Source of the DNA: a bacterium
GTDB taxonomy: Bacteria > SZUA-182 > DTGQ01
Assembly (NCBI GenBank): GCA_023512255.1
Contig: JAILZY010000008.1
Coordinates: 3,508-67,507, forward strand
DNA length: 64,000 bases
Direction of reading: 5' to 3'
Of this stretch, positions 17,013-30,031 are shown piece after piece; the stretch's first letter is position 1, and the number at the start of each line of letters is the position of its first letter. The notes beneath the pieces are model-generated. The model searched no databases, was not told the origin of the DNA, and saw nothing but the letters and a program-made list of their open reading frames with translations. The translations under genes were made by a program, and so were the position numbers.

Positions 17013-17270
17013 GCCAATAGTGGCGATGGTAGGTTGGAGGCTTTTATTCACCCTCACTAACACTAAAGCCTTCCCATCAAGGGGTAGGATGGGTATGAGG
17101 TTTGCCAATAAAAAATAGGGAACATTTAAAAAAATGACCATTTTGATTTGACAGCCTGATTTCAGGCTAGTTATACTTAATAATAAAGACTTTACTTATT
17201 ATATATTCATATTTTTGCATATTTATACTACTTTCTGTATATTTATACTATCTCTTATTAAAATTCGCTC

Positions 17271-17738
17271 TCATATATCAGACACCAGAGTGAGTCCTTT
17301 GTGGTGAAAGAATAATGAGTAAAAAAGGTTCATGAGTGTGGCAATAAAATCTTTAACATTCTGCAATGTCGAGTTTAAGATAAACATAGATCGTTCAAAA
17401 GCAGTCAAATTGCGATGATTACGCTGGAATTGAAATACCTTAGCATAATCAGGCAGGTATTCTTGGGATACCCCTCTGAAAGGGAGTATAAAGAGCAGCC
17501 AAGACAACCAAAGGCTCTCGGCACGGTTCTCATGTACATCTCCTCGAACATACTCTTTTTGGCTATGGTTGACCGTCTCGTGCTTATAGCCCGCTTTTCC
17601 CAAAAAGCTATAGCAAGAGGCAGTATCACTGTAAATGGTACTACCCTTTTCCACCCGCTTCTCAAAGGCCGCTCTCAAAGTCTCCTCTTTTACATCTGGG
17701 AGAACCTCTACCACTACTTCGCCTTGACGATTGGCCAT
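17271..17738 (-). CDS. IS1595-family transposase, C-terminal DDE part
   Basis: ISXO2-like DDE region in a different frame from the N-terminal piece. Combined length about 326 aa, equal to an intact IS1595 transposase. Confidence 0.6.
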   Translation of the reverse strand: MANRQGEVVVEVLPDVKEETLRAAFEKRVEKGSTIYSDTASCYSFLGKAGYKHETVNHSQKEYVRGDVHENRAESLWLSWLLFILPFRGVSQEYLPDYAKVFQFQRNHRNLTAFERSMFILNSTLQNVKDFIATLMNLFYSLFFHHKGLTLVSDI

Positions 17739-17786
17739 GCCCTTAATTACAGGGGAATCCTTCTGGGCCGATCCTCTTCCAGGCCC

Positions 17787-18302
17787 CTATTTCTTTCCTC
17801 TCCTGCGAGCAGGCCGATTCACGGCGATAGGATCATTCGCAGGACGACCAGCCTTATGCCCCGATGTCTGATAAATTTCATCCACTTCAATGACTCCGGA
17901 CAACCGTCTGTCTTGCTCCAATTTAATCTCCCGATTCCTTATGATCCGTACAGCTCTCAAGGCTGTGAGATAATTGCAGGGAATCTCTCGGGCAATCTGC
18001 AATGTTGTTTTCCCCAACTCTACCAGGTACATTACCAAAAACCAGGCAGACAAAGGAAGCTTGCTCTTTTCGAAGATAGTACCAGTACGGTCATTGAATT
18101 CTTTCCCACAACTATAGCAATGGTACCTATGGCACGCACTCTCCCAGGGAACAGTCCAGGGACCTGTCACCCCGCTCTGTCCACAGTATGGGCAGCGGAT
18201 AATCCCATCGGACCATCGATGGTTGCGAAGGACTCTGTAGCAGGCTCCTTCATCCAGCAAACTCTGAAATGTGTCTTTTCGACCGCAACACATGGCTTTC
18301 AT
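17787..18302 (-). CDS. IS1595-family transposase, N-terminal zinc-ribbon part
   Basis: CPYCG...CYSCGKEF zinc-ribbon transposase motif. Ends at a TAG, followed by a frame change into the DDE part. Confidence 0.65.
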   Translation of the reverse strand: MKAMCCGRKDTFQSLLDEGACYRVLRNHRWSDGIIRCPYCGQSGVTGPWTVPWESACHRYHCYSCGKEFNDRTGTIFEKSKLPLSAWFLVMYLVELGKTTLQIAREIPCNYLTALRAVRIIRNREIKLEQDRRLSGVIEVDEIYQTSGHKAGRPANDPIAVNRPARRRGKK

Positions 18303-18427
18303 AATTTATCAACTCCCTTTTCTATTTTATCACAGCGATGGCGTCTAATAAATTGAGAGCGATTTTTATACGAATCGACCTGGTACCCTATTTGGCATAA
18401 AATTAGGAGTAAAACAATGCGGCTTCG

Positions 18428-19213
18428 CTATCTCTGGGGCTTTGTTGTCTGCTTTCGCAGCATGAGCAGCTCATCGTCCAACCCGTGGCGGAGAAGATCG
18501 AGTCTGGATGACGCAGCCACGAGGCTTTCGGCGTGGACCGGCTTGATCCGGAACGGGAAGAGGCTCGGGCTGTCGATCAGATCTTTCAGCGGAGCCGAAC
18601 AGCTGGCCCGGGCGTGGAGGGACGCTTCGGCCAGCCAGGCGATCAGTCGGGAATCCTCAACAGCCAGCGTTGTCCCGGCAGAGTAAATGCCCTTTGCGCC
18701 GCTCTCCTGAAGCACGCCCCAGTCGAGGTACGAACGCAGCACGCGGCGGGCTGCTCGGGAAACGGTCTCCCGCTCGCCGTATTGCTCGCGAACCCTGCGC
18801 TGGACATGAGCCGCGGCAGCGGAGCCCTGAAGCCTCAGAAGACGGCCGGTCTGAGTGGCTACACACGACCAGAACGGGTAGACGGCCATGACCATCCCCC
18901 AGTGGATGGCTAGGCGCAAGTTATGAGGACTGAGGACTGAGTACTGAGTAGAAAGAAAGGCAAGACCGTCGTTTCGCAACGGAATGAGATCCTCTGGTGT
19001 AGTTACCCAAATCTTGCGCATGATAGAGATAATTTTATTACGATTACATCCCTTCGCCTGGCCGCCTATGGAAACCTTGTCCTTTAGTAGCTCTTGCAAG
19101 GCATCATTGATCGCAGCCTTGTCATTCCCTGCCAAGACCAGGTTGGCTGTCTGCTCAAGCCATTCCAGACGCACCCGCTGACTGAATCCGATATGGTTTC
19201 TCCTGTATGTCAT
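18428..19213 (-). CDS. hypothetical protein; candidate BrxA-like terminal gene of the BREX-like cluster
   Basis: Last gene in the same orientation, downstream of pglZ, as expected for brxA in BREX type 3. I cannot verify the DUF1819 fold by eye. Contains an in-frame partial heptad repeat (LSTQYSVLSPHNL). Confidence 0.3.
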   Translation of the reverse strand: MTYRRNHIGFSQRVRLEWLEQTANLVLAGNDKAAINDALQELLKDKVSIGGQAKGCNRNKIISIMRKIWVTTPEDLIPLRNDGLAFLSTQYSVLSPHNLRLAIHWGMVMAVYPFWSCVATQTGRLLRLQGSAAAAHVQRRVREQYGERETVSRAARRVLRSYLDWGVLQESGAKGIYSAGTTLAVEDSRLIAWLAEASLHARASCSAPLKDLIDSPSLFPFRIKPVHAESLVAASSRLDLLRHGLDDELLMLRKQTTKPQR

Positions 19214-19228
19214 TCAGAATTCCTCTTA

Positions 19229-19337
19229 CGGGTTACGAGTTATGGGTTACGAGTTACGAGTCATTAAACTCACAACTCACAACTCACAACTCTCAACTCG
19301 TAACTCATCATTACCCAGTCCTCATCACTCATCACTT
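19229..19337. repeat. palindromic array of heptanucleotide units (GTGAGTT / ACGAGTT / GGGTTAC, then GTGATGA GTGATGA GGACTG) in the pglZ-brxA intergenic spacer
   Basis: Seen directly. About 14 heptad units; the two halves are approximate reverse complements. Confidence 0.7.
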
Positions 19338-21428
19338 CCCCACGCCTCGCATCTCGATATGTACCAGAGGGACGATGAGTTCCTCGACTGAAACGCCGCC
19401 ATGGCTCACGATGCGCTGCTTTTCCTGGACAAACGTCTGCCGAGCGGGGGCCAGCAGGGCGAGGTAGTCCTCCGGGAGACCAACGGTTCCCCATTCCATC
19501 GCGGCGGGAAAGCGTTCCTTCACCTTGGCGCGTAGGGCCGCGTCGGGATAGATGCGGACCCGTTCGCCGCGCAGGTCTGCCACAGCCCCTTCGGATGGAC
19601 GACCGCAGCCTTCCGCCTCGATGTTGCCATGATCAGAGGTCAAATAAACAAGGAAGCCCCGATCCAAGAGCAGATCGAGGAGTGTGTTCAGATACGGCTG
19701 CTTGGCCCACTGGCGCACCTGGTTGTGCATCCCGGCGGTGCCCATTTCCATCCCATGCATGATCCTGTCGACCTTGTCCACGACCAGCCCGACGACCCTT
19801 GCCTTGGTATGAGAAAGCGCTTCGGAAACGCTTTCCAGGCCGCCGTCGCCCAGACCCTTGAGGTAGACGACCTCGTTTGGTGCGAGGCCCTGATCTGCCC
19901 AGAACTGCGCCCAAAGTGCTGGTTCCTTGTCCGTGGTCTGGATGCTGTTCGGGAAAAAGATGGGAGCCTTGCCGGCAAAAGTTGCCTGGCGTGAGACTGA
20001 GGTAAGCGAAGGAATCCAGGCAAAGACCGCCTGCTCCCGGAATCGCAGTCCGGGCTGCTTTGCGGCAAGTGCTTCGCGGATCACCAGCCATTGGTCCAGG
20101 GCAAGGCCGTCGATCACCAACAAAGCGAGCTTTGTTGGTGATCGCAGTGATGAGTGATGAGGACCGGGTAGTGAGTTGGCCAAAAAGAGCGGGATATGAT
20201 GAACCATGGCCGGCGGATTTGGAGGCAACTGGATAAGTCCTGCATATCGCCTCTGTATCCAAGATAGAAATCGCTGATCGACCCTTCGTGTAAGTGCATC
20301 GATACGATCATTCTGTCTTTCACTCAGTCCCCAGTCCTCATTACTCATTACTTTCAATTCCGCCCATCCGCGGGCAAAGTGGAGCCAGTCCGTGTGCTTC
20401 GCGTCCTTGGCCGGGATGGATGCCTCTAGGCTGTCGATGAGCTTGGCCAGACGACGGGACCTGTCCTCTGTGGGAGCCGCTCTAACGCCGATGCCTACCC
20501 AGGTTTTGGACAGGGTTTCCGCATACTCGTGTGGGACTGGATGCAGCACACCCTCGACGAACAGGTTGTCGATGTAGACCCGGATGTCATGGTGGTCGAA
20601 GGGAAGTTCGACAGGTCCCTTGATGGATAGACCGTAGGGCTTCTCTTCCTCACGAACGACTGCCTGTGCCGTGCCCGGCACGGCAGACAGGCCTGCCTGT
20701 TCCGAGGCTTCGGCAGGCCTGCCGGACGCCCCTTTGGCTGCCTCACGGTCAAGAAAGATCGGCCAGCGCTCTTGGAGGAACGCGAAGAAGGCTTCCCTGT
20801 CCGCCACCAGTGTCTCAAGTGGCCATTCGTCGAAGATGTTAGTCTGGCGCAGAAGCTGGATGAACCGCTCGTCGAGGATAGCAGGGATGCGTTGTCCGCG
20901 GTAGTGACGGCGCAGGAGTACCCGCAGGAGGTCCGATGGCTGTTTGATCAGCTCGGGAGCGATTTCAAAGACGTGCCGGAGGACGAACTCCTTGGTGGCG
21001 TTGTCGCTAAGCTGGCCAGGTGCATGTCGGATCGAAGCCTGATACAAGGCATCGAGATCTCCTCTGTCCAGGGCGCTCACAACCGGGCAGCTTAGGTTCG
21101 GAAAGATTTCGCCGAGGTTGAAGGAGAGTTTGCGACCGGCCTGGAGTAGATCATAGGGTAACCCGCTGAGGTCGCTTGCTTGGGAGCGCAATACCACAAC
21201 GAGGTCCGTGTGCTCCCCGCGGTCCCAGCGGGAGCGAAACTTCGATTCATAGGCGTAGCGGAACGCGATACGGTCTTCGAACGGGATCAGCTCAAAGCCA
21301 CGCTCGCGGATGCCTTCGAGAATGCCTTCTTCGAGGAGCAGTCCGTCCGGATCGGCCACTAGGGTGAGTCGAGCGACCTTCGGAGTGAATTCCTTCAGGA
21401 TTTGATCGCGCCAGCTACTCATGGCCAC
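19332..21428 (-). CDS. pglZ: PglZ-domain protein (alkaline-phosphatase superfamily; BREX/Pgl core component)
   Basis: PglZ signature LALLVIDGLALDQW...SLTSVSR...TSDHGN, about 700 aa. Confidence 0.8.
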   Translation of the reverse strand: MAMSSWRDQILKEFTPKVARLTLVADPDGLLLEEGILEGIRERGFELIPFEDRIAFRYAYESKFRSRWDRGEHTDLVVVLRSQASDLSGLPYDLLQAGRKLSFNLGEIFPNLSCPVVSALDRGDLDALYQASIRHAPGQLSDNATKEFVLRHVFEIAPELIKQPSDLLRVLLRRHYRGQRIPAILDERFIQLLRQTNIFDEWPLETLVADREAFFAFLQERWPIFLDREAAKGASGRPAEASEQAGLSAVPGTAQAVVREEEKPYGLSIKGPVELPFDHHDIRVYIDNLFVEGVLHPVPHEYAETLSKTWVGIGVRAAPTEDRSRRLAKLIDSLEASIPAKDAKHTDWLHFARGWAELKVMSNEDWGLSERQNDRIDALTRRVDQRFLSWIQRRYAGLIQLPPNPPAMVHHIPLFLANSLPGPHHSSLRSPTKLALLVIDGLALDQWLVIREALAAKQPGLRFREQAVFAWIPSLTSVSRQATFAGKAPIFFPNSIQTTDKEPALWAQFWADQGLAPNEVVYLKGLGDGGLESVSEALSHTKARVVGLVVDKVDRIMHGMEMGTAGMHNQVRQWAKQPYLNTLLDLLLDRGFLVYLTSDHGNIEAEGCGRPSEGAVADLRGERVRIYPDAALRAKVKERFPAAMEWGTVGLPEDYLALLAPARQTFVQEKQRIVSHGGVSVEELIVPLVHIEMRGVGK

Positions 21429-24369
21429 CGCCCTCCACCCGAATCACAACCAGCGGCACCATGTCGGGATAGGTGTGAGCCTTCTGATCGAGCTGCTCAT
21501 GGAAGCTCCGCTCCTCTTGGGTCAGGAGGTTCAGGCGATAGTTGCGGACCTGGGGCAGGCCAATTCGCTCGATGGTTTTGCGGCGTGCGGCAAAGGCGTA
21601 GTCTGCCTTCTCACGCTCGCGTGCGATGCGGCCCCGATGCTCTTGCAGGAGCGCTTCGTAGATAGGTTTCCCGTGTTCCTCTGCGGCGCTTTGCAGCTTT
21701 GCTAAAGAGGCTTGGGAGACCTTGGCGTCAAGGACGGACCGGACCTTTATGTTTGCTGCGAGGAGCTGATCCCACACGTGTCTGGCCGTCGGCATATAGA
21801 CCATGCCGTTGTCGGCCAAAAAGAGAGGCATGATCCGCCTGCGGCGGGTCTCCGGTCCTGGGCCCAAGGTCACGGGGCCGTCCCACCGACTCGCGACCCG
21901 CGACCCGTTACTCACAATCGAGATTTGCCACAAGGACCAGATGCCCTGGACCTCCCCGGAGAGACCGGGGATTGATACGATAGGAACCGGCTGGCCCGGC
22001 GCAAAGCGGGGAAGTCGCATGGCCAGTTCGCGAATCCTAGGCTCTTCAAGGGTAAGATGCCGGGCGGTCGGAAGCCTCTCGGCTTCCTTGCCGGTGAAGA
22101 CTACATTCTCGTAGGTCTCACCGTCGGGCCAGGTGAGGTTCCAGCTCTGGCGTCTTTTCTCGGCCTGGCCGCCGTGCGCCTTCAGGTAGCTCACGGTCAT
22201 ACGCTCGATCCAATGGGGCAAGGGGTGAGTCAGCAGCCGCTGGGCTTCGCCAGGCTCCAGATCCTCGGTCGCGCCAAGTACCGATGCGGTCGTGCGCGCC
22301 TCGCGAGCCTGCTCCTGCAAGCGGGCAATCACGCTCTCCACGGATTCCTCCACCTTTTCGGGGTTGAGGATCGCCTCGACATACATCTCGTCGAACATGT
22401 GGCTCGCCTGGGCCGAGTCAAGGACGTCGCCGGTCTTGTCAATGCCGAACTCCTCGAAGATGACGGCGAGCTTCTGCTCCAGTACTTCAAGGACCCGATG
22501 CTCAACCGATCCTTCGAGGACCAAGTTAACCGCACGCACCGTATGAGCTTGGCCGATACGATCCACCCGACCAATCCGCTGTTCGAGTCGCATCGGGTTC
22601 CAGGGGATGTCGTAGTTGATCACCACGTGGCAGAACTGGAGGTTCAAACCCTCCCCGCCGGCGTCGGTGGAGATGAGAATCCGGACATCCTTGGCGAATG
22701 CCTCCTGGGCCCGCTTACGCTCTTCCATGTCCATAGAGCCATTCAGGCAGACGACTGAAAACCCGCGCTCTGTTAGGAACCAACGCAACATCTCTTGGGT
22801 GGGAACGAACTCGGTGAACACCAGTACCTTAAGCTCAGGGTCGCTCTCCTCGGCCTGGAGGCGGTAGAGCCAGTCTAGCAGTGCCTCGGCCTTGGCGTCT
22901 GGTCCGATCTGCTCGCAGCGAGCCGCGGCCTCCAAGAGCATCTTTACCTCGGCGCGCTCGTTCTTGAGCGCCTTGAGGCGGGTGCGAAGCAACACCTCGA
23001 TCTGCTCCTGGCCGTCCAAGTCAGCCCATTCCTCTTCGGAGTTGAGGGGGAACAGGGTCAGTTGTTCCTGAGGTGCGGCGAGCGCCTCGAGCCGCCTTTC
23101 AAGCGTAATGCGGATAGCTCTTGTGCTGGAGACCACAAGGCGCTGCATCAGGATCATCAGAAAGCCGATATAGCTGCGTTTCTCCCGCATGGCCTGGTTG
23201 TAGCCTTCGCGTACGTATTCTGTGACCGCCTCGTAGAGGAGCTGCTGATCGCGGTGCCGCTCTTTCCATGAGACCGGAGCAAGCTGTGTGCGCCGCGGCT
23301 TGAACAGCGGGTTTCCCTCTACGTCAATGGCGCGGCGCTTTTCGGTGCGGATGACATGCGGTTGGACTCGCTCGCGGGTGACGCTGCTCGTGTCCGGGAA
23401 TTCCTGGGTGTCGATAAGGGAAACGAGCCGATGAAAGGCGTCGGTCTTGCCCTGGTGCGGGGTCGCCGAAAGCAGCAGGAGATATGGCGCGGACTCGGCC
23501 AGCCCCTGGCCCAGTTTGAAGCGGGCCACCTGGTCGGTGCTGCCGCCCAGACGGTGCGCTTCGTCCACGATGACCAGGTCCCAGCCGGCGGAGATCAGGT
23601 CCTCGAACCGTTCGCGGGCCGCCGCGCCGCCGCTTCCCGCCGCAGGTTTGACGGAATCCATGGGAACCACAATCTGATCTAATATCCGAAAAGGATTCTG
23701 TGCGTCTCGGCGGAGTACTGAGGACTGAGTGCTGAGGACTAAGCGGTTTTCTTCATACTCAGTCCTTAGTCCTCGTGCCTCAGTCCTGTGGATTGCCGAG
23801 ATGCGCTTCAAGGTGCGGTAGTCTTCCGTAAGAACTTGATGGAACCGTTCATTGAAGTGCATTGCCATCTCGGCAATCCACTGCGTGACCAGCCCCTTTG
23901 GGGCGATGACCAGCGTCCGCTTGACCAGTCCGCGAAGCTTAAGTTCCCGCATAATGAGCCCAGCCTCGATGGTCTTGCCCAGGCCGACCTCGTCCGCCAG
24001 GAGATAGCGCACCCGGTCGCTGCTAATGGCGCGGGATAAAGCATGGATCTGGTGAGGAAGCGGAATGACGGAGGACTCAATGGGTGCGAGCAGGACGTCC
24101 TGTGTCAGTGCATCTGCTACCCGCGCGGCCGCAGCAATGTAGGCGATATGGTCCGCCGAACCGGTACCTGCACTATCCAGTGGTTTAAGTCTGGAAGCCG
24201 CCGGGATGCGGACCACCGAGTCGCTCCCGGGCAGCCAGACATGGCAGGTCGTCTCGCCCCAGAGCGTCTGGACTTCGATGACCTGACAAAGCTGCCCGTG
24301 GTCCGGGGAATACAACCACGAATGAACACGAATGGACTCAAATAAGTTCATAGGACAAGTCTCTCCCAT
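21415..24369 (-). CDS. SNF2-family superfamily-2 helicase (BrxHII-like)
   Basis: Motif I LADEVGLGKTIEAGL; DEAH box IVDEAHRL; C-terminal helicase domain; 984 aa. Confidence 0.8.
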   Translation of the reverse strand: MGETCPMNLFESIRVHSWLYSPDHGQLCQVIEVQTLWGETTCHVWLPGSDSVVRIPAASRLKPLDSAGTGSADHIAYIAAAARVADALTQDVLLAPIESSVIPLPHQIHALSRAISSDRVRYLLADEVGLGKTIEAGLIMRELKLRGLVKRTLVIAPKGLVTQWIAEMAMHFNERFHQVLTEDYRTLKRISAIHRTEARGLRTEYEENRLVLSTQSSVLRRDAQNPFRILDQIVVPMDSVKPAAGSGGAAARERFEDLISAGWDLVIVDEAHRLGGSTDQVARFKLGQGLAESAPYLLLLSATPHQGKTDAFHRLVSLIDTQEFPDTSSVTRERVQPHVIRTEKRRAIDVEGNPLFKPRRTQLAPVSWKERHRDQQLLYEAVTEYVREGYNQAMREKRSYIGFLMILMQRLVVSSTRAIRITLERRLEALAAPQEQLTLFPLNSEEEWADLDGQEQIEVLLRTRLKALKNERAEVKMLLEAAARCEQIGPDAKAEALLDWLYRLQAEESDPELKVLVFTEFVPTQEMLRWFLTERGFSVVCLNGSMDMEERKRAQEAFAKDVRILISTDAGGEGLNLQFCHVVINYDIPWNPMRLEQRIGRVDRIGQAHTVRAVNLVLEGSVEHRVLEVLEQKLAVIFEEFGIDKTGDVLDSAQASHMFDEMYVEAILNPEKVEESVESVIARLQEQAREARTTASVLGATEDLEPGEAQRLLTHPLPHWIERMTVSYLKAHGGQAEKRRQSWNLTWPDGETYENVVFTGKEAERLPTARHLTLEEPRIRELAMRLPRFAPGQPVPIVSIPGLSGEVQGIWSLWQISIVSNGSRVASRWDGPVTLGPGPETRRRRIMPLFLADNGMVYMPTARHVWDQLLAANIKVRSVLDAKVSQASLAKLQSAAEEHGKPIYEALLQEHRGRIAREREKADYAFAARRKTIERIGLPQVRNYRLNLLTQEERSFHEQLDQKAHTYPDMVPLVVIRVEGGGHE
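23714..23790. repeat. ~77 bp imperfect-palindrome repeat element built from GAGGACT-type heptads, in-frame inside the helicase gene
   Basis: The 3' 30 nt are identical (one mismatch) to the copy at 28617-28696. Translated in-frame as RTEARGLRTEYEENRLVLSTQSSVL. Confidence 0.7.
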
Positions 24370-24731
24370 TCGAGTTTTGGCTTTTTGAAATTGAGGATAA
24401 GGCCGACTTTGAGCTGGGTAATCTTCAGGTAGTTGAGCATCTGGCCACGTTCAACATCCGTAATACGGTCAATCGTCTTGGCGTCGACCACGATCTTATC
24501 AAAGGCAATCAAATCGGGAATGTAATCGCCCACCTTGACACCTTTGTAAATTACATCGAAGCGCGGCTGCTGCTTGTAAGGGATTCCTCTCAGGCCAAAT
24601 TCAACAACGAGTGCATTTTCATACGGCTTTTCCAGCAACCCATGCCCAAGCGTATTGAACACCTCCATGGCGCAGCCAACGATCTGGAATACCTCATCTT
24701 TGAACAGTAATTTGTGTTCCTTCGTGTCCAT
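24348..24731 (-). CDS. GxxExxY-family small protein (PD-(D/E)xK nuclease-like fold)
   Basis: 127 aa. VGCAMEVFNTLG matches the GxxExxY motif, with downstream D/E-x-K-type residues. Overlaps the helicase start by 22 nt. Confidence 0.65.
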   Translation of the reverse strand: MDTKEHKLLFKDEVFQIVGCAMEVFNTLGHGLLEKPYENALVVEFGLRGIPYKQQPRFDVIYKGVKVGDYIPDLIAFDKIVVDAKTIDRITDVERGQMLNYLKITQLKVGLILNFKKPKLEWERLVL

Positions 24732-24740
24732 TCGTGGTTC

Positions 24741-25667
24741 TCACTCCTCCCCCGCTCGAGTAACCGCCTGGTCGTACCACATGAGGAGCTTGGGGTCTTT
24801 CTGGAGGACGTTCTCAGGAATTTTGCGGGCCACAGCGATGATGGTGGCATAGTCGCGCTCCTGCCATGCCTTCTTGAATCCGGCCCGGACCGCCTCAAGG
24901 CGGAAGACCTTCAGTTTCCGCTGGCTGGAAGCCAGCGCCACACTGGAAGCCAGCGCCACATATTCTTGAAATTCCTTGAGCAGGGACCGCTCGCGCAGCT
25001 TCTCCAGGTCGATGGCCTTGTTCGGGTCAGGCACATACCAGCGGTCCTTGGCTTCGCGAAGCAGTCTCGGGTCCTGAGTCTCGAGTCCCGAGTCTTCTGA
25101 TCCGTCACCCGCGACCCGCGACTCGCGACTGATCAACTCCCGCCATGTAGCACTCTGCTTCATCCACGAGACGATTTGTTTTGGAATAGGCCCCTTGCCG
25201 TCATAGCGCAAGAAGTTCTGCTCCAGCAGCTCGGAAAGCTCCAGCAGCCTCTCGTGCTTATGCCAGCCGCTGATCTCCTTGAGGAATTGGGGGTGCAGTT
25301 CCTGGAAGGTCTGTGGCTTCCGTGTGAGCTGCTGTTTGAGCCACTCGATGGCTGAGGCCTCATCCGTGACAAAGAGCGGAAGCTGCACAAAGAGCGGAAG
25401 CTGCACAAAGAGCGGAAGCTGCAGCAACTTTCGGACAGCCATCCGCTTTTTGTCATACTCAGCCACCTGCTCGGGCAGGAAGTACATCCCGTCCCGTTCT
25501 GGGAAACGCTGGGCCAGCCCAGCGTAAAACTCCCCAGCGGATATCGGAACCATCACCCCACGCTGCACATGAAAGGCCACCATGCGGTCAAAGAGTAGGT
25601 AATTCTGGCGCTCGGCGATGATTTCCAAGGTGGAGCCTGCATCTTGCAGGCTATCTTCTTGCTGCAC
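24741..25667 (-). CDS. hypothetical protein, possibly the frameshifted C-terminal portion of the PglX-like methyltransferase
   Basis: Follows methyltransferase piece 2 after 10 nt in another frame. The three pieces sum to about 1255 aa (PglX-like size). Contains two in-frame 18-bp tandem repeat arrays. Confidence 0.35.
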   Translation of the reverse strand: MQQEDSLQDAGSTLEIIAERQNYLLFDRMVAFHVQRGVMVPISAGEFYAGLAQRFPERDGMYFLPEQVAEYDKKRMAVRKLLQLPLFVQLPLFVQLPLFVTDEASAIEWLKQQLTRKPQTFQELHPQFLKEISGWHKHERLLELSELLEQNFLRYDGKGPIPKQIVSWMKQSATWRELISRESRVAGDGSEDSGLETQDPRLLREAKDRWYVPDPNKAIDLEKLRERSLLKEFQEYVALASSVALASSQRKLKVFRLEAVRAGFKKAWQERDYATIIAVARKIPENVLQKDPKLLMWYDQAVTRAGEE

Positions 25668-25677
25668 CGGCTGACTT

Positions 25678-26910
25678 TTATTTTTGTTTAGCCTGCTGGA
25701 AGCAGGCTCTACTTTGCTTAGCCTGCTGGAAGCAGAACTCAGCCTGCTGGAAGCAGGCTCTCACAAATACCGGCAGTTGCTTCAGGTGAGTGCGGACAAA
25801 GTCCCAAACGCCTTGCTCCGTCCCCGCTTCGAGCTTGAAGCGTTCCTCTAGGCCACCGTTTGGCTTGTAGCAGGAGATGATGAGGTCCTGTTTGACCGCG
25901 GATGCTGAAGTTACCTGCTTGAAAGAACCTTGCTGCTTGTCCAGCGTGCGCACATCAGCAATGACAAAGCACGCGGCCTGCAGGGCCTCCTGGATCGCGT
26001 TCCAGACCGCGTTCTTGGAGTTGTGAAATTCCACCGTCATCCAGTGGCCCGGCTTGAGCACCCGGTAGTATTCTTTGAAACATTCGGTCATGAGCTTCTG
26101 GTATTCTGGCAGCCCTTTGCCCTGGGCGGTGTTTTCGATGGCCTCAGGCTTGTTGTTGGTAAAAACCTTAAGCCACGCCTCCCAGAGGAAATTCAGCTCA
26201 GAATACATCAGGTTGCCACCAAAGGGTGGGTCGGTGAAGATGTAGTCGATGGATTCGCCTGGTATTGGGAATACTGAAGAATCACAACAACCAATGGATG
26301 CCACCTTGATCTCGCCAAACCGTGGAGCTTCATGTTTTATGAGTCTCTGCAATTTACCGGTAAGAATGTAACCGGAAGACACTTCTACCTGTTGCGAACC
26401 GACGTATAACGTGCCACTAAGATACCGGTTTACTTGCGAAAAATGAGTAGGGACATACCGCGATATTTTCGCGAATCCCAGCGCCGCATACTGTATGAAA
26501 AACAAGCTCAATTTGTGCCGTGCCTTAAATGCCTTATCATACATCCCCCCCAGCACCCACAGATTCCGTCTGGTATAGAAATGGTGCACATGGGTGATGC
26601 CGTGGGAAACTTTAGGTTGCTCCGTGTTATAGCCCTCCGGCATACGATCCGTCGGAAACCAATATGGTATTTCCATCTGCTCAATTTTTTCGATAAGTGC
26701 TAGATCGAAGGCGTCGGGCGTCTTTTCGAATCGCTGCTTTCCCACGCTATAGTTGATGAGCACCGGCACTTGTTTGGCTTGCCTGATGGTCTGATTAATA
26801 GCCTTATCAAATTTGGTAACCCAAGCCCGTTCCATTAGGCGTTTGGTGAGCAGGGTGCCGCAGTGGGGGCAGGGAAATTTGTCATGGATTTTGCCCGCTT
26901 CCTTATTCAC
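25678..26910 (-). CDS. DNA methyltransferase fragment (amino-methyltransferase catalytic motif DPPF), piece 2; in-frame continuation of 26920..28533 across a TAG
   Basis: Catalytic motif IV IFTDPPFGGN. Begins with a CPHCG half zinc ribbon. Starts at GTG three codons after the TAG of the upstream piece, in the same frame. Confidence 0.7.
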   Translation of the reverse strand: MNKEAGKIHDKFPCPHCGTLLTKRLMERAWVTKFDKAINQTIRQAKQVPVLINYSVGKQRFEKTPDAFDLALIEKIEQMEIPYWFPTDRMPEGYNTEQPKVSHGITHVHHFYTRRNLWVLGGMYDKAFKARHKLSLFFIQYAALGFAKISRYVPTHFSQVNRYLSGTLYVGSQQVEVSSGYILTGKLQRLIKHEAPRFGEIKVASIGCCDSSVFPIPGESIDYIFTDPPFGGNLMYSELNFLWEAWLKVFTNNKPEAIENTAQGKGLPEYQKLMTECFKEYYRVLKPGHWMTVEFHNSKNAVWNAIQEALQAACFVIADVRTLDKQQGSFKQVTSASAVKQDLIISCYKPNGGLEERFKLEAGTEQGVWDFVRTHLKQLPVFVRACFQQAEFCFQQAKQSRACFQQAKQK

Positions 26911-26919
26911 GGCAGCCTC

Positions 26920-28533
26920 CTAGAAGACTACCTCTTGGGTGCAGTTTGGGCAGACAAAGACATCGGACCAGACGGTATAGTTGATTTTTCCCAGTGGAGC
27001 CGGCTTCCAGCCGGCTGAAACCAATTCTTTTGCTACATACCGCCATTCATAATCCAGCGGCCGCCTTACCAGGCCAGCTTTGACCGGGTTATGGTTTACA
27101 TAAGCCAGTGTGGCCATCAGTTCTTTGCTATCGCGGATGATTCGATCATAGCTTTCCGTCTGCCATACTGTAGTCCCAGTTTTTTGCTCCAATTTATTCA
27201 CTTCATTGGCTGAATAGCTTTTAACACTGTGAAGAATCTCAGATAGATCCCAGGGTGCGTCTTTTTGTTTTTCGAGAGGTTTGGCCACGATATGAACATG
27301 ATCTGGCATAACCACCGCAGTGAACACCTTCCAGCGCTTTTGATCCCAGAATAAAATCGCATCCAGAACAATTTTCCTGGCTGGTTCACTGAGAACGCGC
27401 AGGTCGTGTGTTCTGAATGTAACAAAATAAGTGGCCCCGGGAACCTGGATGTGGGGTAGGTTATCTTTTCTGAAGGTTGATTCGTTTGTCTGAAATGGAT
27501 TGCAGGGCTCGAAGTTTATTGCTGATATAAGCCTGCTGGAAGCAGGCTCTACATGCAGGGTCTCATACATCCAGCCGCATTCGGCTTCCACTTCCTTCAG
27601 GATGCGCCTGGCTTCACGCTCAAAGGCCACGACATCCACCGGGGTGTTGTAGTTATAGGCGATGAAGGTGGCAGCAGGCGACAGGTCATTCAAGACAGCC
27701 CGCCGCGCGCCAAGTTTCGAAAATGGTTTCCAGATGGTTTTGCCGCTCTCTTCGGTTTCCTTCTGATAGATCACCCCGTCCTTATCCACCCGGTAGCCCA
27801 GCGCCTCGACCGCTGCTTTATCCCCGCACATCTGCGCTGCTACGCCGGTCATCCCTGTCCCGCAGAAGCCGTCGAAAACGATATCCCCAGGCTCGGTGTA
27901 ATGCAGGATGTAGCGCATTACGGCCTTGTGCGGCACCTTAGTGTGGTAGGAGTGGGCATTGTAGATCGGATCGTTCTTGCCCTCGCTCACATCCGCGGCA
28001 AAGGGCTCGCGGTGATAGGGTTTATCCACAAAGGCACACGAAGCCCCACCAAGAGATTTCTCTTGTTCGTACATCTTCGTGTCCTTCGTGGATTCCCAAT
28101 ACCTTACCATGTCGGCGATGAAGGGATTGGGGCAGGCGGTGTAGTAGGGTGGGTCGGATAGTGCCAGGATGTCCTCGTCGCTGCCGTGCGGGAAGCCGAC
28201 CTCGTCCTTGTAAAGGCTGAGGAGGTCTCGGGGCACGGGTCGTGAGTCGCGGGTCGATGATGCAGCGTGGGCGATGCGTCCTGCCAGGTAGCGGATTTGC
28301 TCGTCATTGCCCAGCAGCCAATGCTCGAGGGATTTCAGCCGCTGGTAAGTATCTTCGAGACTCGTAAAGGGGACGGAAAGCTTTTCTCGCATCTCCTGCA
28401 AGCCTGCTCGCAAAATGCCGAGAAAAGCTTTCTGCCGCTCTTCGTCGTTCGGGAACGTTAGCCCCAAGCAGGTCACGGGTTTATGGTGTTTGATTTCTGG
28501 TTTCTCGTTGTCGAATAGGATGTCCATGTTCAT
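26920..28533 (-). CDS. DNA methyltransferase N-terminal module fused in-frame to an IS200/IS605-type Y1 HUH transposase domain, piece 1
   Basis: Methyltransferase motifs SDPPYY (aa 127-132) and FDGFCGTGMTG (aa 220-230). Y1 transposase domain at aa ~362-495 with HUH motif PDHVHIV and catalytic-Tyr motif VWQTESYDRIIRD. C-terminal CPNC half zinc ribbon, then TAG. Confidence 0.75.
   Translation of the reverse strand: MNMDILFDNEKPEIKHHKPVTCLGLTFPNDEERQKAFLGILRAGLQEMREKLSVPFTSLEDTYQRLKSLEHWLLGNDEQIRYLAGRIAHAASSTRDSRPVPRDLLSLYKDEVGFPHGSDEDILALSDPPYYTACPNPFIADMVRYWESTKDTKMYEQEKSLGGASCAFVDKPYHREPFAADVSEGKNDPIYNAHSYHTKVPHKAVMRYILHYTEPGDIVFDGFCGTGMTGVAAQMCGDKAAVEALGYRVDKDGVIYQKETEESGKTIWKPFSKLGARRAVLNDLSPAATFIAYNYNTPVDVVAFEREARRILKEVEAECGWMYETLHVEPASSRLISAINFEPCNPFQTNESTFRKDNLPHIQVPGATYFVTFRTHDLRVLSEPARKIVLDAILFWDQKRWKVFTAVVMPDHVHIVAKPLEKQKDAPWDLSEILHSVKSYSANEVNKLEQKTGTTVWQTESYDRIIRDSKELMATLAYVNHNPVKAGLVRRPLDYEWRYVAKELVSAGWKPAPLGKINYTVWSDVFVCPNCTQEVVF
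27049..27450 (-). other. embedded IS200/IS605-family Y1 (HUH) transposase-like domain within the methyltransferase ORF
   Basis: GATYFVTFRT...PDHVHIV...TVWQTESYDRIIRD...HNPVKAGLV carries all hallmark motifs of TnpA(IS200)/RAYT. Confidence 0.7.
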
Positions 28534-29072
28534 TCCGTCCCTGGCGTAACAATTAAAAAATCGTGAACTGGATATCGTCTGTATTCTGGGTGATCCGGCG
28601 TCGCATAGACCAAATAGAGTGATGAGGACTGAGTGATTAGTGCTGAGTCTTCGGACGTCTCTGACTCAGTCCTCAGTCCTCGTGCCTCAGTCCTGATTTT
28701 GCCGCTCCAAGCCGCGACCACCGTCTTGTTCCGCGAGAGCCTCTGCAGAAGCCGCAACGGGTCCTGCTTGAGAGAGACATCGAAGAGGACCTCGATGTTG
28801 TCCAGCAAAACCACATCGGCTGCGGATGCGCCCACGATATCTGCAAGGAGGCGGGGCAACTGCAAGGCCCGCTGGCGCTCGGTGAGGTCGAGCATTCGCC
28901 GGGAAAGCTCGAGGTTGACGTTGACCAGAGGAGCCGCCGTGCGCTCATGGACATCCTGGAGAGCGGCGGTCTTGCCCGCACCAGCCGGGGCCACCAACAT
29001 GACAAGCCGGTGGTACAGCTCGGCAGCCTGGCCAATTCTCTTTATGACTCTATCGGCGAGTGGCTCCGCCAT
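28530..29072 (-). CDS. P-loop NTPase, BrxF-like (BREX type 3)
   Basis: Walker A LVAPAGAGKTAAL. Small size and first position in the cluster fit BrxF. The likely start is MAEPLADR at 29072; the track ORF extends to 29132. The C-terminus carries an in-frame repeat-element insertion. Confidence 0.5.
   Translation of the reverse strand: MAEPLADRVIKRIGQAAELYHRLVMLVAPAGAGKTAALQDVHERTAAPLVNVNLELSRRMLDLTERQRALQLPRLLADIVGASAADVVLLDNIEVLFDVSLKQDPLRLLQRLSRNKTVVAAWSGKIRTEARGLRTESETSEDSALITQSSSLYLVYATPDHPEYRRYPVHDFLIVTPGTE
28617..28696. repeat. second copy of the same palindromic heptad element, in-frame near the C-terminus of the BrxF-like gene
   Basis: Shares GATGAGGACTGAGTG...ACTCAGTCCTCAGTCCTCGTGCCTCAGTCCTG with the copy at 23714-23790. 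Encodes IRTEARGLRTESETSEDSALITQSSSL. Confidence 0.7.
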
Positions 29073-29097
29073 TAGCGATCTCTCTTCCCGAACCAAG

Positions 29098-29241
29098 CTA
29101 ATTCGCCCGCGTTTTTTCAAGCCAATGGTCAATGGCTCCTTTCTGGAAACGCCAGTGTCGGCCGATTCTCTGGGAGAGGATCTTGGCTTCCCGAACGAGC
29201 TTGTAGAGTGTTGACTTCGGCATTTTCAGGTAGGCGGCCAA
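29098..29241 (-). CDS. small excisionase/AlpA-family HTH DNA-binding protein
   Basis: Found by manual translation; not in the ORF track because under 60 aa. LSIEELAAYLKMPKSTLYKLVREAKILSQRIGRHWRFQKGAIDHWLE matches the excisionase-family HTH consensus. The start codon is uncertain: TTG at 29241 or ATG at 29223. Confidence 0.5.
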   Translation of the reverse strand: MAAYLKMPKSTLYKLVREAKILSQRIGRHWRFQKGAIDHWLEKTRAN

Positions 29242-30031
29242 CTCTTCGATGCTCAGTACATCACCTGGTTTTTTTCATCCATCAAGCGCATCTTTCTGGT
29301 CTTAACAAGCTCATCTTTCTGGTCTTAAGGCAAAGTTCGACCCAGCATGCCTCATATCAAGCTCATAATTTAAAGTTATTGGTAGTTGATGTCAAGCGCT
29401 TTTGAAGCGCAGAGGGGCCTAAACCCAACATTTGTGACACCAAGGGCACTAAGAGTTTAACCCTCTTCACCAAGATGTTCCCCATCTTTAAATTTGAAGG
29501 ACGATTTACTACCTCCTCCCTTAAACTTTAATAAATTATGAGAACATGGTTAATATTTAGTTTAACACTTTTTTCCGATAAAGTCTATTTTTCAAGGCAG
29601 ACATAAAAAGGGGGAGGAGCCGGAAAGAGGAGGGCTAGGCTTTGTGGTCATTACCTTTTTTGTTCATTACTCTTCCGGCTCTCTCCCAAGGGGAAGTAGG
29701 GAAGCGCTCCGTGCAGGGGAAAAGTTATTTGGGCAAGGGACGATCCTTGTGATCGTCCCATTTCAAGCGCACCCTGCAGGGGAAAAAAGAGCTATCTTTG
29801 ATCCTCATTTAAGAGGATCTTTGAGATGAGCGAGCTAATGTTATCTTATCCGAAATTATCATCCCCTCGGAATCCCCTGATGGTCCCGCACTGTGTGGGT
29901 GGACTGTGGCTTACTGCTTCCGGTGTCTGCTCTTAGGCCTAATATTCCTCCCTACCTAGAGATCCCGAGGGGTAGCATCTGAAATAACTATCGCTGCTCA
30001 TTATTCGGATTCTAAAAAATCCTCAACCCGG

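What the first reader, a model, noticed from the sequence alone, without database searches (positions are those of the whole stretch)
26905..26925. Single in-frame TAG splits the methyltransferase exactly through a Cys4 zinc ribbon
ORF 26920..28533 ends ...VFVCPNCTQEVVF-TAG. Three codons later (EAA), in the same frame, GTG-NKEAGKIHDKFPCPHCG begins ORF 25678..26910. The CPNC and CPHC halves of a C-x2-C-x22-C-x2-C zinc ribbon therefore lie on opposite sides of the stop, which implies one ancestral ~950-aa protein. TAG is a genuine stop elsewhere (for example gmk), so global recoding is unlikely. Options are a recent nonsense mutation (inactivated defense gene), a sequencing error, or programmed readthrough that splits the methyltransferase module from a downstream DPPF-containing module.
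Basis: seen in the sequence. Interest (0 to 1): 0.55.

Follow-up and report, generated by a model that had tools for sequence, protein, structure and literature searches.

The report
Amber mutation in decaying BREX methyltransferase
The in-frame TAG is a one-base (G to A) change of a conserved tryptophan codon in the methyltransferase gene of a horizontally acquired, already crippled BREX phage-defence island, so it is an ordinary pseudogene; the same gene also carries an unusual in-frame REP/RAYT transposase cassette.

Summary
On the minus strand, ...VFVCPNCTQEVVF-TAG(26922..26920)-EAA-GTG-NKEAGKIHDKFPCPHCG splits a Cys4 zinc finger.

The gene is pglXI (brxXI), the methyltransferase of a type 3 BREX defence system. 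In about 115 of 120 homolog clusters the stop position is Trp, and all nine related loci with DNA read TGG there. The TAG is therefore a TGG>TAG transition at window base 26921.

The intact protein is about 1,050-1,200 aa, not 950, and the gene carries a second lesion. A 136-nt cluster of REP hairpins (25626..25761) brings in a TAA and a frameshift that cuts off the C-terminal 308 aa (24741..25667).

The essential brxC gene is missing from the locus. The whole 12-kb, GC-rich island (17266..29603) is absent from relatives that are 96-97% identical.

TAG ends housekeeping genes such as gmk and yebC. No relative has a stop at this position, and no unusual RNA structure follows it. A recent nonsense mutation in a decaying defence gene is strongly favoured. 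Readthrough and recoding are not supported. A base-call error remains possible but unlikely.

Side finding: pglXI contains an in-frame REP-RAYT-REP cassette that is conserved across phyla, and its hairpins are translated and have spread within the gene.

The parts
26920..26922 (-). In-frame amber codon TAG replacing the conserved Trp codon TGG. The mutated base is 26921 (A on the coding strand, T on the + strand).
   Evidence: Trp in about 115/120 homolog clusters. TGG in 9/9 related loci.
26920..28533 (-). pglXI/brxXI fragment 1 (537 aa): N-terminal segment, motif I (FDGFCGTG), the nested RAYT cassette, and the first half (CPNC) of the zinc finger.
   Evidence: Pfam N6_N4_Mtase plus Y1_Tnp. 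PADLOC PglXI E=5.6e-120.
26994..27552 (-). In-frame REP-RAYT-REP cassette. The 5' REP is GGAGCCTGC-TTCCA-GCAGGCT (27530..27548, translated EPASSRL). The RAYT domain has HUH (MPDHVHIV) and Tyr (AYVNHNPVKAG) motifs. The 3' inverted REP is AGCCGGC-TGGAA-GCCGGCTCC (26997..27018, translated AGWKPAP).
   Evidence: (inverted repeat I3).
26908..26921 (-). AGGAGG (26921..26916), a 5-nt spacer, then GTG (26910..26908): a Shine-Dalgarno-like start context directly after the stop. It is a by-product of the conserved W-E-A-A-V codons.
   Evidence: The relative L005 reads TGGGAGGCGGCGGTG at the same place.
25678..26910 (-). pglXI fragment 2 (410 aa): second half (CPHC) of the zinc finger, the TRD and motif IV (TDPPF). 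It ends in REP-derived residues and TAA at 25680..25678.
25626..25761 (-). Second lesion: a 136-nt REP cluster replaces about 18 nt of the linker that encodes SKDGKA in homologs. It holds two full and one partial copy of the TTCCA-loop hairpin, plus one inverted copy with an ATCTT loop. It introduces the TAA and a +1 frameshift.
   Evidence: (family D1).
24741..25667 (-). pglXI fragment 3 (308 aa, frame -3): the C-terminal HTH region of PglXI, now out of frame with fragment 2.
   Evidence: tblastn frame change. PADLOC PglXI profile 658-918/919, E=4.4e-128. PMC12839542 for the domain.
25369..25423 (-). Perfect 18-bp x3 in-frame tandem duplication (LPLFVQ x3) inside fragment 3.
24914..24960 (-). 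REP-like hairpin GCTGGC-TTCCA-GCCAGC with an 18-bp in-frame duplication (VALASS x2).
   Evidence: (I2). L002 and L010 have the same hairpin at the same site.
28530..29132 (-). brxF. Its TGA overlaps the pglXI ATG (ATGA), where relatives have the 1,245-aa brxC. It carries a 66-nt in-frame insert of heptamer repeats.
   Evidence: PADLOC BrxF E=5e-71..
29098..29241 (-). Excisionase-family HTH gene at the head of the island.
   Evidence: NCBIfam TIGR01764.
24348..24731 (-). PDDEXK_3 (GxxExxY) gene flanked by 30-nt inverted repeats (24314..24343 and 24710..24739), inserted between pglXI and brxHII.
   Evidence: I1.
21415..24369 (-). brxHII SNF2-type helicase, intact ORF.
19332..21428 (-). pglZ, intact ORF.
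   Evidence: PADLOC PglZ E=2.1e-299.
18428..19213 (-). brxA, intact ORF.
   Evidence: PADLOC BrxA E=1.1e-99.
17271..18302 (-). IS1595-family transposase at the island edge, itself split by an in-frame TAG at 17787..17789.
   Evidence: The position is Arg in the 84%-identical P0242.
17266..29603 (.). Strain-specific, GC-rich (55-61% in the 18-26 kb core, against 42-52% in the rest of the window) island that holds the BREX remnant. It is absent from relatives that are 96-97% identical.

Best explanation
The TAG is a spontaneous nonsense mutation: TGG (Trp) to TAG, a G>A change at window base 26921 on the coding strand. It lies in pglXI/brxXI, the N6-adenine methyltransferase of a type 3 BREX phage-defence system.

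The stop falls in the four-cysteine zinc finger at the apex of the target-recognition domain (TRD). That domain is inserted between motif I and motif IV of the single catalytic domain. Translation therefore ends after 537 aa, and the product lacks the DPPF catalytic motif. The gene is non-functional (inferred).

This is one of several signs of decay in a recently acquired island:
- A REP-hairpin cluster 1.2 kb downstream adds a TAA and a frameshift that detaches the C-terminal HTH region.
- The core gene brxC is missing.
- The adjacent IS1595 transposase also carries an in-frame stop.

Shown: the ancestral codon, the second lesion, the absence of brxC, and the accessory status of the island. 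Inferred: that the base is real rather than a consensus error, and that no functional enzyme is made.
For: - The position is Trp in about 115 of the 120 best homolog clusters (FW[ED]AAVDK). The rest have Ser or Arg, and none has a stop. The codon is TGG in all 9 related loci with DNA. The relative closest in the TRD, L005, reads TTC TGG GAG GCG GCG GTG.
- Homologs of 1,048-1,196 aa align continuously from 28518 to 25762 in one frame across the TAG, then in another frame from 25625 to 24744. The gap holds a 136-nt REP cluster with TAA.
- Motif I and motif IV of one N6_N4_Mtase domain lie on opposite sides of the stop. The architecture matches the published BrxXI description: a TRD insert with a 4-Cys Zn finger and C-terminal HTHs (PMC12839542).
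- The locus is type 3 BREX: BrxF, PglXI, BrxHII, PglZ and BrxA. BrxC gives no tblastn hit anywhere in the window, whereas L002, L003 and L005 all have BrxF-BrxC-PglXI.
- TAG ends 7 of 43 long ORFs, including gmk and yebC, at the ends of their family profiles.
- The Logan assembly of SRR15214128 is 100% identical over 25464..27871, including both lesions.
- The window protein departs from the consensus at 8 of 357 columns that are at least 97% conserved. Homologs average 2.6. Five of the eight are G>A changes by the genetic code, including the stop. This fits relaxed selection and AT-biased mutation of a GC-rich import.
- The island 17266..29603 is absent from 96-97% identical relatives.
- The NCBI protein accessions that flank the gene leave no number free for any pglXI fragment. 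This fits a pseudogene call by the annotator (inference).
Against: - No reads were available. If SRR15214128 is the read set behind the MAG, the two assemblies are not independent.
- Apart from the two lesions, the 3.7-kb reading frame is well kept, and brxF, brxHII, pglZ and brxA are intact ORFs. Decay must therefore be recent, or some parts are still under selection.
- A strong Shine-Dalgarno-like AGGAGG and a GTG sit directly after the stop. A second polypeptide could be made by termination-reinitiation.
- The nearest homolog is only 83-88% identical in the TRD part. No sister allele shows the pre-mutation state directly.
- brxC could be encoded elsewhere in the genome.
Confidence: 0.82

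Rival explanations
1. Consensus or base-call error in the metagenome assembly: the true codon is TGG and the gene is not interrupted at this point.
For: The source is a MAG contig. The difference from the ancestral state is a single base. No reads could be inspected.
Against: A second assembler (Logan, SRR15214128) gives the identical 2,408 nt. Substitution errors in short-read consensus are rare (general knowledge). The gene would still be broken by the REP cluster, TAA and frameshift at 25626..25761, which is present in both assemblies. The neighbouring IS1595 gene also carries a stop.
Confidence: 0.08
2. A tolerated or functional split. Ribosomes that terminate at TAG reinitiate at GTG 26910, using the AGGAGG at 26921..26916. 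The two polypeptides reassemble around the shared zinc site into an active methyltransferase. Alternatively, low-level near-cognate readthrough gives some full-length protein.
For: There is a perfect SD-like hexamer with a 5-nt spacer before the GTG. Both halves keep their catalytic motifs and all four cysteines. Natural and engineered split methyltransferases exist (my own knowledge, not tested here).
Against: The SD-like sequence and the GTG are already present in intact relatives as W-E-A-A-V codons (TGGGAGGCGGCGGTG in L005), so they were not selected for a split. No homolog among 120 clusters and 9 loci is split here. The 4th base is G and there is no downstream structure (z = +0.65). The C-terminal HTH region is separately cut off with no SD before its GTG. 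brxC is missing.
Confidence: 0.06
3. TAG is decoded as a sense codon in this organism, either through an amber suppressor tRNA or a reassigned code. The gene would then be read through as a matter of course.
For: Two in-frame TAGs lie within 10 kb of each other, in pglXI and in the IS1595 transposase.
Against: TAG terminates gmk, yebC, brxA, brxHII and others where the homologous profiles end. The two interrupted positions correspond to different residues, Trp and Arg. Both lie in accessory genes of a foreign island. No tRNA gene is present in the window, which does not speak for the rest of the genome.
Confidence: 0.01
4. A programmed on/off (phase-variation) switch of the BREX methyltransferase, as proposed for disrupted pglX genes.
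For: pglX genes are often found disrupted, and this has been read as phase variation (PMC9122589 citing Goldfarb 2015).
Against: There is no simple-sequence repeat, invertible segment or duplicated cassette at the site. A point nonsense mutation reverts only at the base-substitution rate. The second lesion is a 136-nt insertion.
Confidence: 0.03

Closest known systems
BrxXI / PglXI methyltransferase of type 3 BREX (Goldfarb et al. 2015; domain description in PMC12839542, NAR 2026)
   Same: It has an N6_N4 methyltransferase core, with a large TRD inserted between motif I and motif IV, a conserved 4-Cys Zn finger, and a C-terminal HTH region of about 300 aa. Its operon neighbours are BrxF, BrxHII, PglZ and BrxA.
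   Different: The reading frame is broken twice: by the TAG in the Zn finger and by the REP cluster with a frameshift before the HTH region. brxC is missing. The gene carries a 188-aa RAYT cassette just upstream of the Zn finger, which the published architecture does not mention.
Disrupted or phase-variable pglX genes in BREX/Pgl systems (S. coelicolor Pgl; survey remark cited in PMC9122589)
   Same: A BREX methyltransferase gene is found in an interrupted state, and the methyltransferase is the component most often disrupted.
   Different: Known switches use a G-tract or inversions. Here there is a plain base substitution plus a repeat-element insertion, with no reversible mechanism.
REP / RAYT systems (E. 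coli TnpA-REP, PDB 4ER8; REPINs of Pseudomonas)
   Same: The domain is a Y1 HUH type with HUH and Tyr motifs, and its only PDB hit is 4ER8. It is flanked by inverted GC-rich hairpins with a conserved 5' tetranucleotide. The hairpin stems covary. Free-standing relatives carry the same hairpins (L007, L008).
   Different: Classical RAYTs are free-standing single-copy genes, and their REPs are extragenic. Here the RAYT has no start or stop of its own. It is read in frame as part of PglXI, and its REPs lie almost only inside the host gene's coding sequence and are translated.
Naturally split DNA methyltransferases (for example M.AquI; from memory, not tested)
   Same: Catalytic motifs are distributed over two adjacent ORFs.
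   Different: In those enzymes the split is conserved and each part has its own evolved start. Here the split is unique to this sequence and derives from a single-base change.

Membership tests
Type 3 BREX system | BrxF (inactive STAND NTPase) | tested here: met
   PADLOC BrxF E=5e-71. 59% identical to BrxF of L002 over the full length.
Type 3 BREX system | BrxC/PglY ATPase (universal BREX core gene) | tested here: not met
   No tblastn hit of three BrxC proteins anywhere in the 64-kb window. The brxF stop overlaps the pglXI start. Relatives have BrxC between the two.
Type 3 BREX system | PglZ, BrxHII helicase and BrxA | tested here: met
   PADLOC: PglZ 2.1e-299 and BrxA 1.1e-99, BrxH 1503 bits. 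Pfam: SNF2-rel_dom plus Helicase_C.
BrxXI/PglXI methyltransferase | Motif I (FxGxG) and motif IV (DPPF/Y) of one N6_N4 methyltransferase domain | tested here: met
   Both motifs are present, but on different ORFs: profile positions 159-205 in ORF1 and 1-106 in ORF2.
BrxXI/PglXI methyltransferase | TRD insert with a conserved 4-Cys zinc finger | tested here: met
   CPNC...CPHC aligns with CPEC-x23-CPHC of homologs. The feature is described in PMC12839542.
BrxXI/PglXI methyltransferase | One uninterrupted ORF of about 1,000-1,200 aa including the C-terminal HTH region | tested here: not met
   TAG at 26920..26922. TAA plus frameshift at 25626..25761.
RAYT (REP-associated tyrosine transposase, Y1 HUH) | Y1_Tnp domain with HUH motif and catalytic Tyr motif | tested here: met
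   Pfam PF01797 scores 27.1 bits against a cut-off of 23. MPDHVHIV and AYVNHNPVKAG align with the HUH and Tyr regions of 4ER8. Both motifs are invariant in 7 embedded copies.
RAYT (REP-associated tyrosine transposase, Y1 HUH) | Flanked by REP hairpins in inverted orientation | tested here: met
   Inverted repeat I3, with arms 26994..27023 and 27523..27552. The same pair is present in L002, L003, L007 and L010-L016.
RAYT (REP-associated tyrosine transposase, Y1 HUH) | Free-standing gene with dispersed extragenic REPs | tested here: not met
   The domain is embedded in frame in pglXI. All 7 REP or REP-like copies in the window lie inside pglXI (six full copies; partial copy at 25721..25737). In relatives, 36 lie inside pglXI and 2 outside. 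The genome-wide count is not testable here.
RAYT (REP-associated tyrosine transposase, Y1 HUH) | Cleavage and joining activity on REP single strands | not testable with these tools
   Needs biochemistry.
Programmed stop-codon readthrough / recoding site | Stop codon conserved at the site in relatives | tested here: not met
   Trp/TGG in homologs. No stop in 120 clusters or 9 loci.
Programmed stop-codon readthrough / recoding site | Stimulatory context or structure downstream | tested here: not met
   The context is TAG-G. The MFE of the 126 nt from the stop is no better than shuffles (z = +0.65).
Programmed stop-codon readthrough / recoding site | Suppressor tRNA or reassigned TAG | tested here: inconclusive
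   No tRNA gene in the window. TAG terminates gmk and yebC. The rest of the genome was not seen.
Phase-variable defence gene | Hypermutable repeat or invertible segment at the switch site | tested here: not met
   No repeat at 26905..26925.

The most novel reading that the evidence does not exclude
The novel element is the RAYT cassette, not the TAG. A REP-RAYT-REP cassette lives in frame inside the BREX type 3 methyltransferase gene, in lineages from several phyla. It has no start or stop codon of its own, so it can only be expressed as a domain of PglXI. Its hairpins are kept at the DNA level with compensatory stem changes while being translated as EPASSRL and AGWKPAP. Daughter REPs have spread almost only within the host gene: 36 inside against 2 outside in nine loci, and all 7 in the window.

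The most novel reading is that the embedded RAYT is catalytically active and mobilises REPs locally. That would make it either an intein-like selfish tenant or a co-opted single-strand DNA-hairpin module of the defence enzyme. On this reading, the disruptive REP cluster at 25626..25761 is collateral damage from its own activity.
Probability: 0.4. Interest if true: 0.65.

Novelty: new member of a known kind. Interest (0 to 1): 0.27.

Why it matters
For the finding as given, little changes. It is one more defence-gene pseudogene, and it should be annotated as one three-piece pseudogene rather than as three proteins. It should not be counted as recoding or as a new split enzyme. It also shows how fast an imported BREX island is dismantled: brxC is lost, and pglXI has been hit twice.

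The context matters more. A RAYT that survives only as an in-frame domain of a defence methyltransferase, with REP hairpins living as coding sequence, is not part of the published picture of RAYTs or of BrxXI. Intact relatives such as P0001 and L010 offer a tractable test of whether RAYTs act in cis on neighbouring hairpins.

Tried and rejected
- Exact-pattern scan of JGI metagenome contigs for the 26-nt site, with N at the mutated base, to find a TGG allele: no hit.
- Scan of GTDB species-representative genomes with the RAYT region. The source genome is not among them (best match 83%), so there is no sister allele.
- Exact-sequence look-up of the window's proteins. Only ORF2 was found, in a single 2.4-kb Logan contig. 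ORF1, ORF3 and brxH were not found.
- Hopping to 96-99% identical strains through flanking genes, to read their pglXI. They lack the whole island, so they give no orthologous codon.
- Global TAG recoding and a suppressor: rejected on stop usage and on the different ancestral residues at the two in-frame TAGs.
- A readthrough-stimulating RNA structure: none.
- The second RAYT-only protein search did not return the long PglXI fusions. This is a limit of the word index, so it cannot be used to count fusions.
- The apparent frameshift in L014 at the same linker turned out to be a run of N in that record, not a lesion.
- Literature searches for RAYT-methyltransferase fusions and for the run or accession numbers found nothing relevant.
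Full report
**Observation.** On the minus strand the window reads ...GTC TTC TAG GAG GCT GCC GTG AAT AAG..., with the TAG at 26922..26920. ORF 26920..28533 (537 aa) ends ...VFVCPNCTQEVVF. After EAA, the GTG at 26910 opens ORF 25678..26910 (410 aa, VNKEAGKIHDKFPCPHCG...) in the same frame. The description is therefore correct. Only three places in the 64-kb window join two open stretches of at least 150 codons across a single stop. One of these is a chance neighbour pair (EF-G and YebC), and the other two are interrupted genes.

**What the gene is.** Pfam places the C-terminal part of the N6_N4_Mtase profile (motif I, FDGFCGTG) in ORF1, and the N-terminal part (motif IV, TDPPF) in ORF2. The stop therefore cuts through one catalytic domain, not between two modules.

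PADLOC identifies all three consecutive ORFs (26920..28533, 25678..26910 and 24741..25667) as successive parts of PglXI. The neighbours are BrxF, BrxH, PglZ and BrxA. This is a type 3 BREX locus.

The published architecture of this enzyme (BrxXI) has three elements: a TRD of about 250 aa inserted into the Rossmann fold, a conserved four-cysteine Zn finger at the TRD apex, and about 280-300 C-terminal residues that form HTH domains (PMC12839542). The TAG lies inside that Zn finger. The third ORF is the HTH region.

**Ancestral state.** A search with the read-through sequence returned full-length proteins of about 1,000-1,200 aa. In about 115 of the best 120 clusters the residue at the stop position is Trp (consensus CPECTxEVVF-W-EAAVDKEAGKV). 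The rest have Ser or Arg, and none ends there. In nine related loci for which DNA was fetched, the codon is TGG every time. L005, the closest relative in this part (83-88% aa identity), reads TTC TGG GAG GCG GCG GTG. The TAG is therefore TGG>TAG, one G>A transition at base 26921.

**More lesions and the state of the locus.** tblastn with intact homologs runs in one frame from 28518 to 25762, straight through the TAG. It then jumps to another frame for 25625..24744.

Homologs have six residues (SKDGKA) between these two stretches. The window instead has 136 nt holding two full and one partial copy of the hairpin AGCCTGC-TTCCA-GCAGGCT and one inverted copy with loop ATCTT. This insert brings in a TAA (25680..25678) and a +1 shift.

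Two perfect 18-bp in-frame tandem duplications lie further downstream.

BrxC/PglY is a universal BREX core gene. It sits between brxF and pglXI in L002, L003 and L005, but it has no match anywhere in the window. Here the brxF stop overlaps the pglXI start (ATGA).

The IS1595 transposase at the island edge carries its own in-frame TAG at 17787..17789. An 84%-identical homolog has Arg at that position.

At 357 alignment columns that are at least 97% conserved, the window protein deviates 8 times, against a mean of 2.6 for homologs. Five of the eight are G>A changes by the genetic code (W538*, D543N, V549I, R830H, E1214K). This fits relaxed constraint and AT-biased mutation of a GC-rich import.

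**The island.** GC content is 55-61% across 18-26 kb, against 42-52% in the rest of the window. Strains with 96-97% nucleotide identity share the flanks up to about 17,265 and from 29,604 onward. They lack everything in between, and in them the two flanks lie on different contigs. The BREX remnant is thus strain-specific accessory DNA at a rearrangement point. Less likely, it sits at a chimeric join in the MAG contig.

The window comes from an NCBI MAG labelled only 'bacterium'. Its EF-G is about 60% identical to those of Syntrophorhabdaceae, Nitrospinota and NC10. Six NCBI protein accession numbers fall between the GxxExxY gene and the TPR gene, and they match the six non-pglXI genes there. 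The annotator therefore probably treated pglXI as a pseudogene (inference).

**Alternatives.**
- *Error.* I could not see reads. The Logan assembly of SRR15214128 is identical over 25464..27871, including the TAG and the REP cluster. The two assemblies may share reads.
- *Recoding.* TAG ends 7 of 43 long ORFs, including gmk and yebC, exactly where their family profiles end. The two in-frame TAGs replace different residues.
- *Programmed readthrough.* No relative has a stop, the next base is G, and the downstream 126 nt fold no better than shuffles (z = +0.65).
- *Split enzyme by reinitiation.* AGGAGG, five bases and then GTG follow the stop, which could support reinitiation. The same bases occur in intact relatives as the codons for W-E-A-A-V, so this context is a by-product. 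The C-terminal region is separately detached with no ribosome-binding site. I give this option about 6%.

**The nested cassette (outside the finding, but the most unusual thing here).** ORF1 contains a Y1_Tnp/RAYT domain. Its HUH motif (MPDHVHIV) and Tyr motif (AYVNHNPVKAG) are intact, and its only PDB match is E. coli TnpA-REP, 4ER8.

The domain is bounded by 30-nt inverted repeats, 26994..27023 and 27523..27552. These are two REP hairpins in opposite orientation. They are read in frame as EPASSRL and AGWKPAP.

Thirteen of the 120 best PglXI clusters carry the same insert at the same point, between CGWMYETLH and GKINYTVWS. Other homologs have a short loop there, for example TDGKTK. Seven species-representative genomes also carry it. 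Their labels are Deltaproteobacteria, Desulfobacteraceae, Chloroflexota, Chlorobiaceae, Eubacteriales, and a short contig binned as Thermococci.

The hairpin DNA is identical in the window, L002 and L003, while adjacent codons differ at synonymous sites. Over 50 copies collected from 12 sequences, 48 have 6/6 stem pairs, built from eight different stem sequences. This count is subject to some ascertainment bias: the search pattern fixes four of the six stem pairs. By chance, only about one in seven of the hits passing the filter would pair at both free positions.

Across nine relatives' loci, 36 such hairpins lie inside pglXI (29 kb) and 2 lie outside (81 kb). Most of those genes remain single open frames. 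The linker hit in the window also carries a REP array in L014.

Free-standing RAYTs with the same hairpins exist in non-BREX contexts (L007, L008). The L007 copy carries a PglXI-like remnant downstream (NYTV*SDMF).

I found no description of this arrangement in the BrxXI paper or in literature searches.

**Verdict.** The finding itself is an ordinary recent nonsense mutation in a decaying, horizontally acquired BREX type 3 methyltransferase gene. It scores low on interest and is a new member of a known kind. The in-frame REP/RAYT cassette deserves its own follow-up.

Noticed in passing
window 26994..27552 (minus); also L002, L003, L010-L016: A REP-RAYT-REP cassette is read in frame as part of PglXI. 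It has HUH and Tyr motifs. The flanking inverted hairpins are translated as EPASSRL and AGWKPAP and are conserved at the DNA level with compensatory stem changes. It is present in 13/120 homolog clusters and in 7 representative genomes of several phyla.
   Followed up: yes
window 25626..25761, 24914..24960; L010 6896 and 8510; L013 6302-6931; L014 7971-8393; L015 5287-5503: Daughter REP hairpins lie almost only inside pglXI coding sequence (36 inside against 2 outside in nine loci), usually in frame. The linker before the C-terminal HTH region is a repeated target.
   Followed up: partly
L007 6001..6760: A free-standing RAYT with the same REPs sits among housekeeping genes. It is followed by a PglXI-like remnant (NYTV*SDMF..., similar at the DNA level to the window's INYTVWSDVFVCP). 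This suggests the copy derives from a pglXI-embedded cassette.
   Followed up: partly
window 17271..18302 (TAG at 17787..17789): The IS1595-family transposase is split by a second in-frame TAG. The 84%-identical homolog P0242 has Arg there (KK-R-GPGRG).
   Followed up: yes
window 28530..28533: brxC/pglY is absent. The brxF stop overlaps the pglXI start (ATGA), at the point where relatives carry a 3.7-kb brxC gene. This looks like a clean deletion.
   Followed up: partly
window 17266..29603: The whole IS1595 plus BREX segment is missing in 96-97% identical strains. Their corresponding flanks lie on different contigs with other neighbours. This indicates either a rearrangement at the island or a chimeric MAG contig.
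   Followed up: partly
window 24314..24739; L002 15227..15514: A PDDEXK_3 (GxxExxY) gene flanked by 30-nt inverted repeats is inserted between pglXI and brxHII. In L002 a 23S_rRNA_IVP-family gene occupies the equivalent spot.
   Followed up: no
window 18924..28694 (for example 19226..19336, 23713..23740, 25063..25129, 28617..28694): Imperfect heptanucleotide tandem repeats occur almost only inside the island. They include a 66-nt in-frame insert in brxF, with opposed AGGACTG / CAGTCCT runs, and intergenic arrays between brxA and pglZ. L002 has a few in brxH.
   Followed up: partly
window 25369..25423 and 24925..24960: Perfect 18-bp in-frame tandem duplications (LPLFVQ x3, VALASS x2) in the C-terminal part of pglXI. 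The second one duplicates half of a REP-like hairpin.
   Followed up: no
window pglXI residues 538, 543, 549, 830, 1214 (joined numbering): Five of eight departures from near-invariant residues are G>A changes on the coding strand, including the stop. This points to a directional mutation bias in this GC-rich import.
   Followed up: partly
L012 5622..6600: Another RAYT-positive pglXI, in Deltaproteobacteria bacterium TL4, has an internal deletion from the zinc finger to the C-terminal region. This is a second, independent pglXI pseudogene.
   Followed up: no
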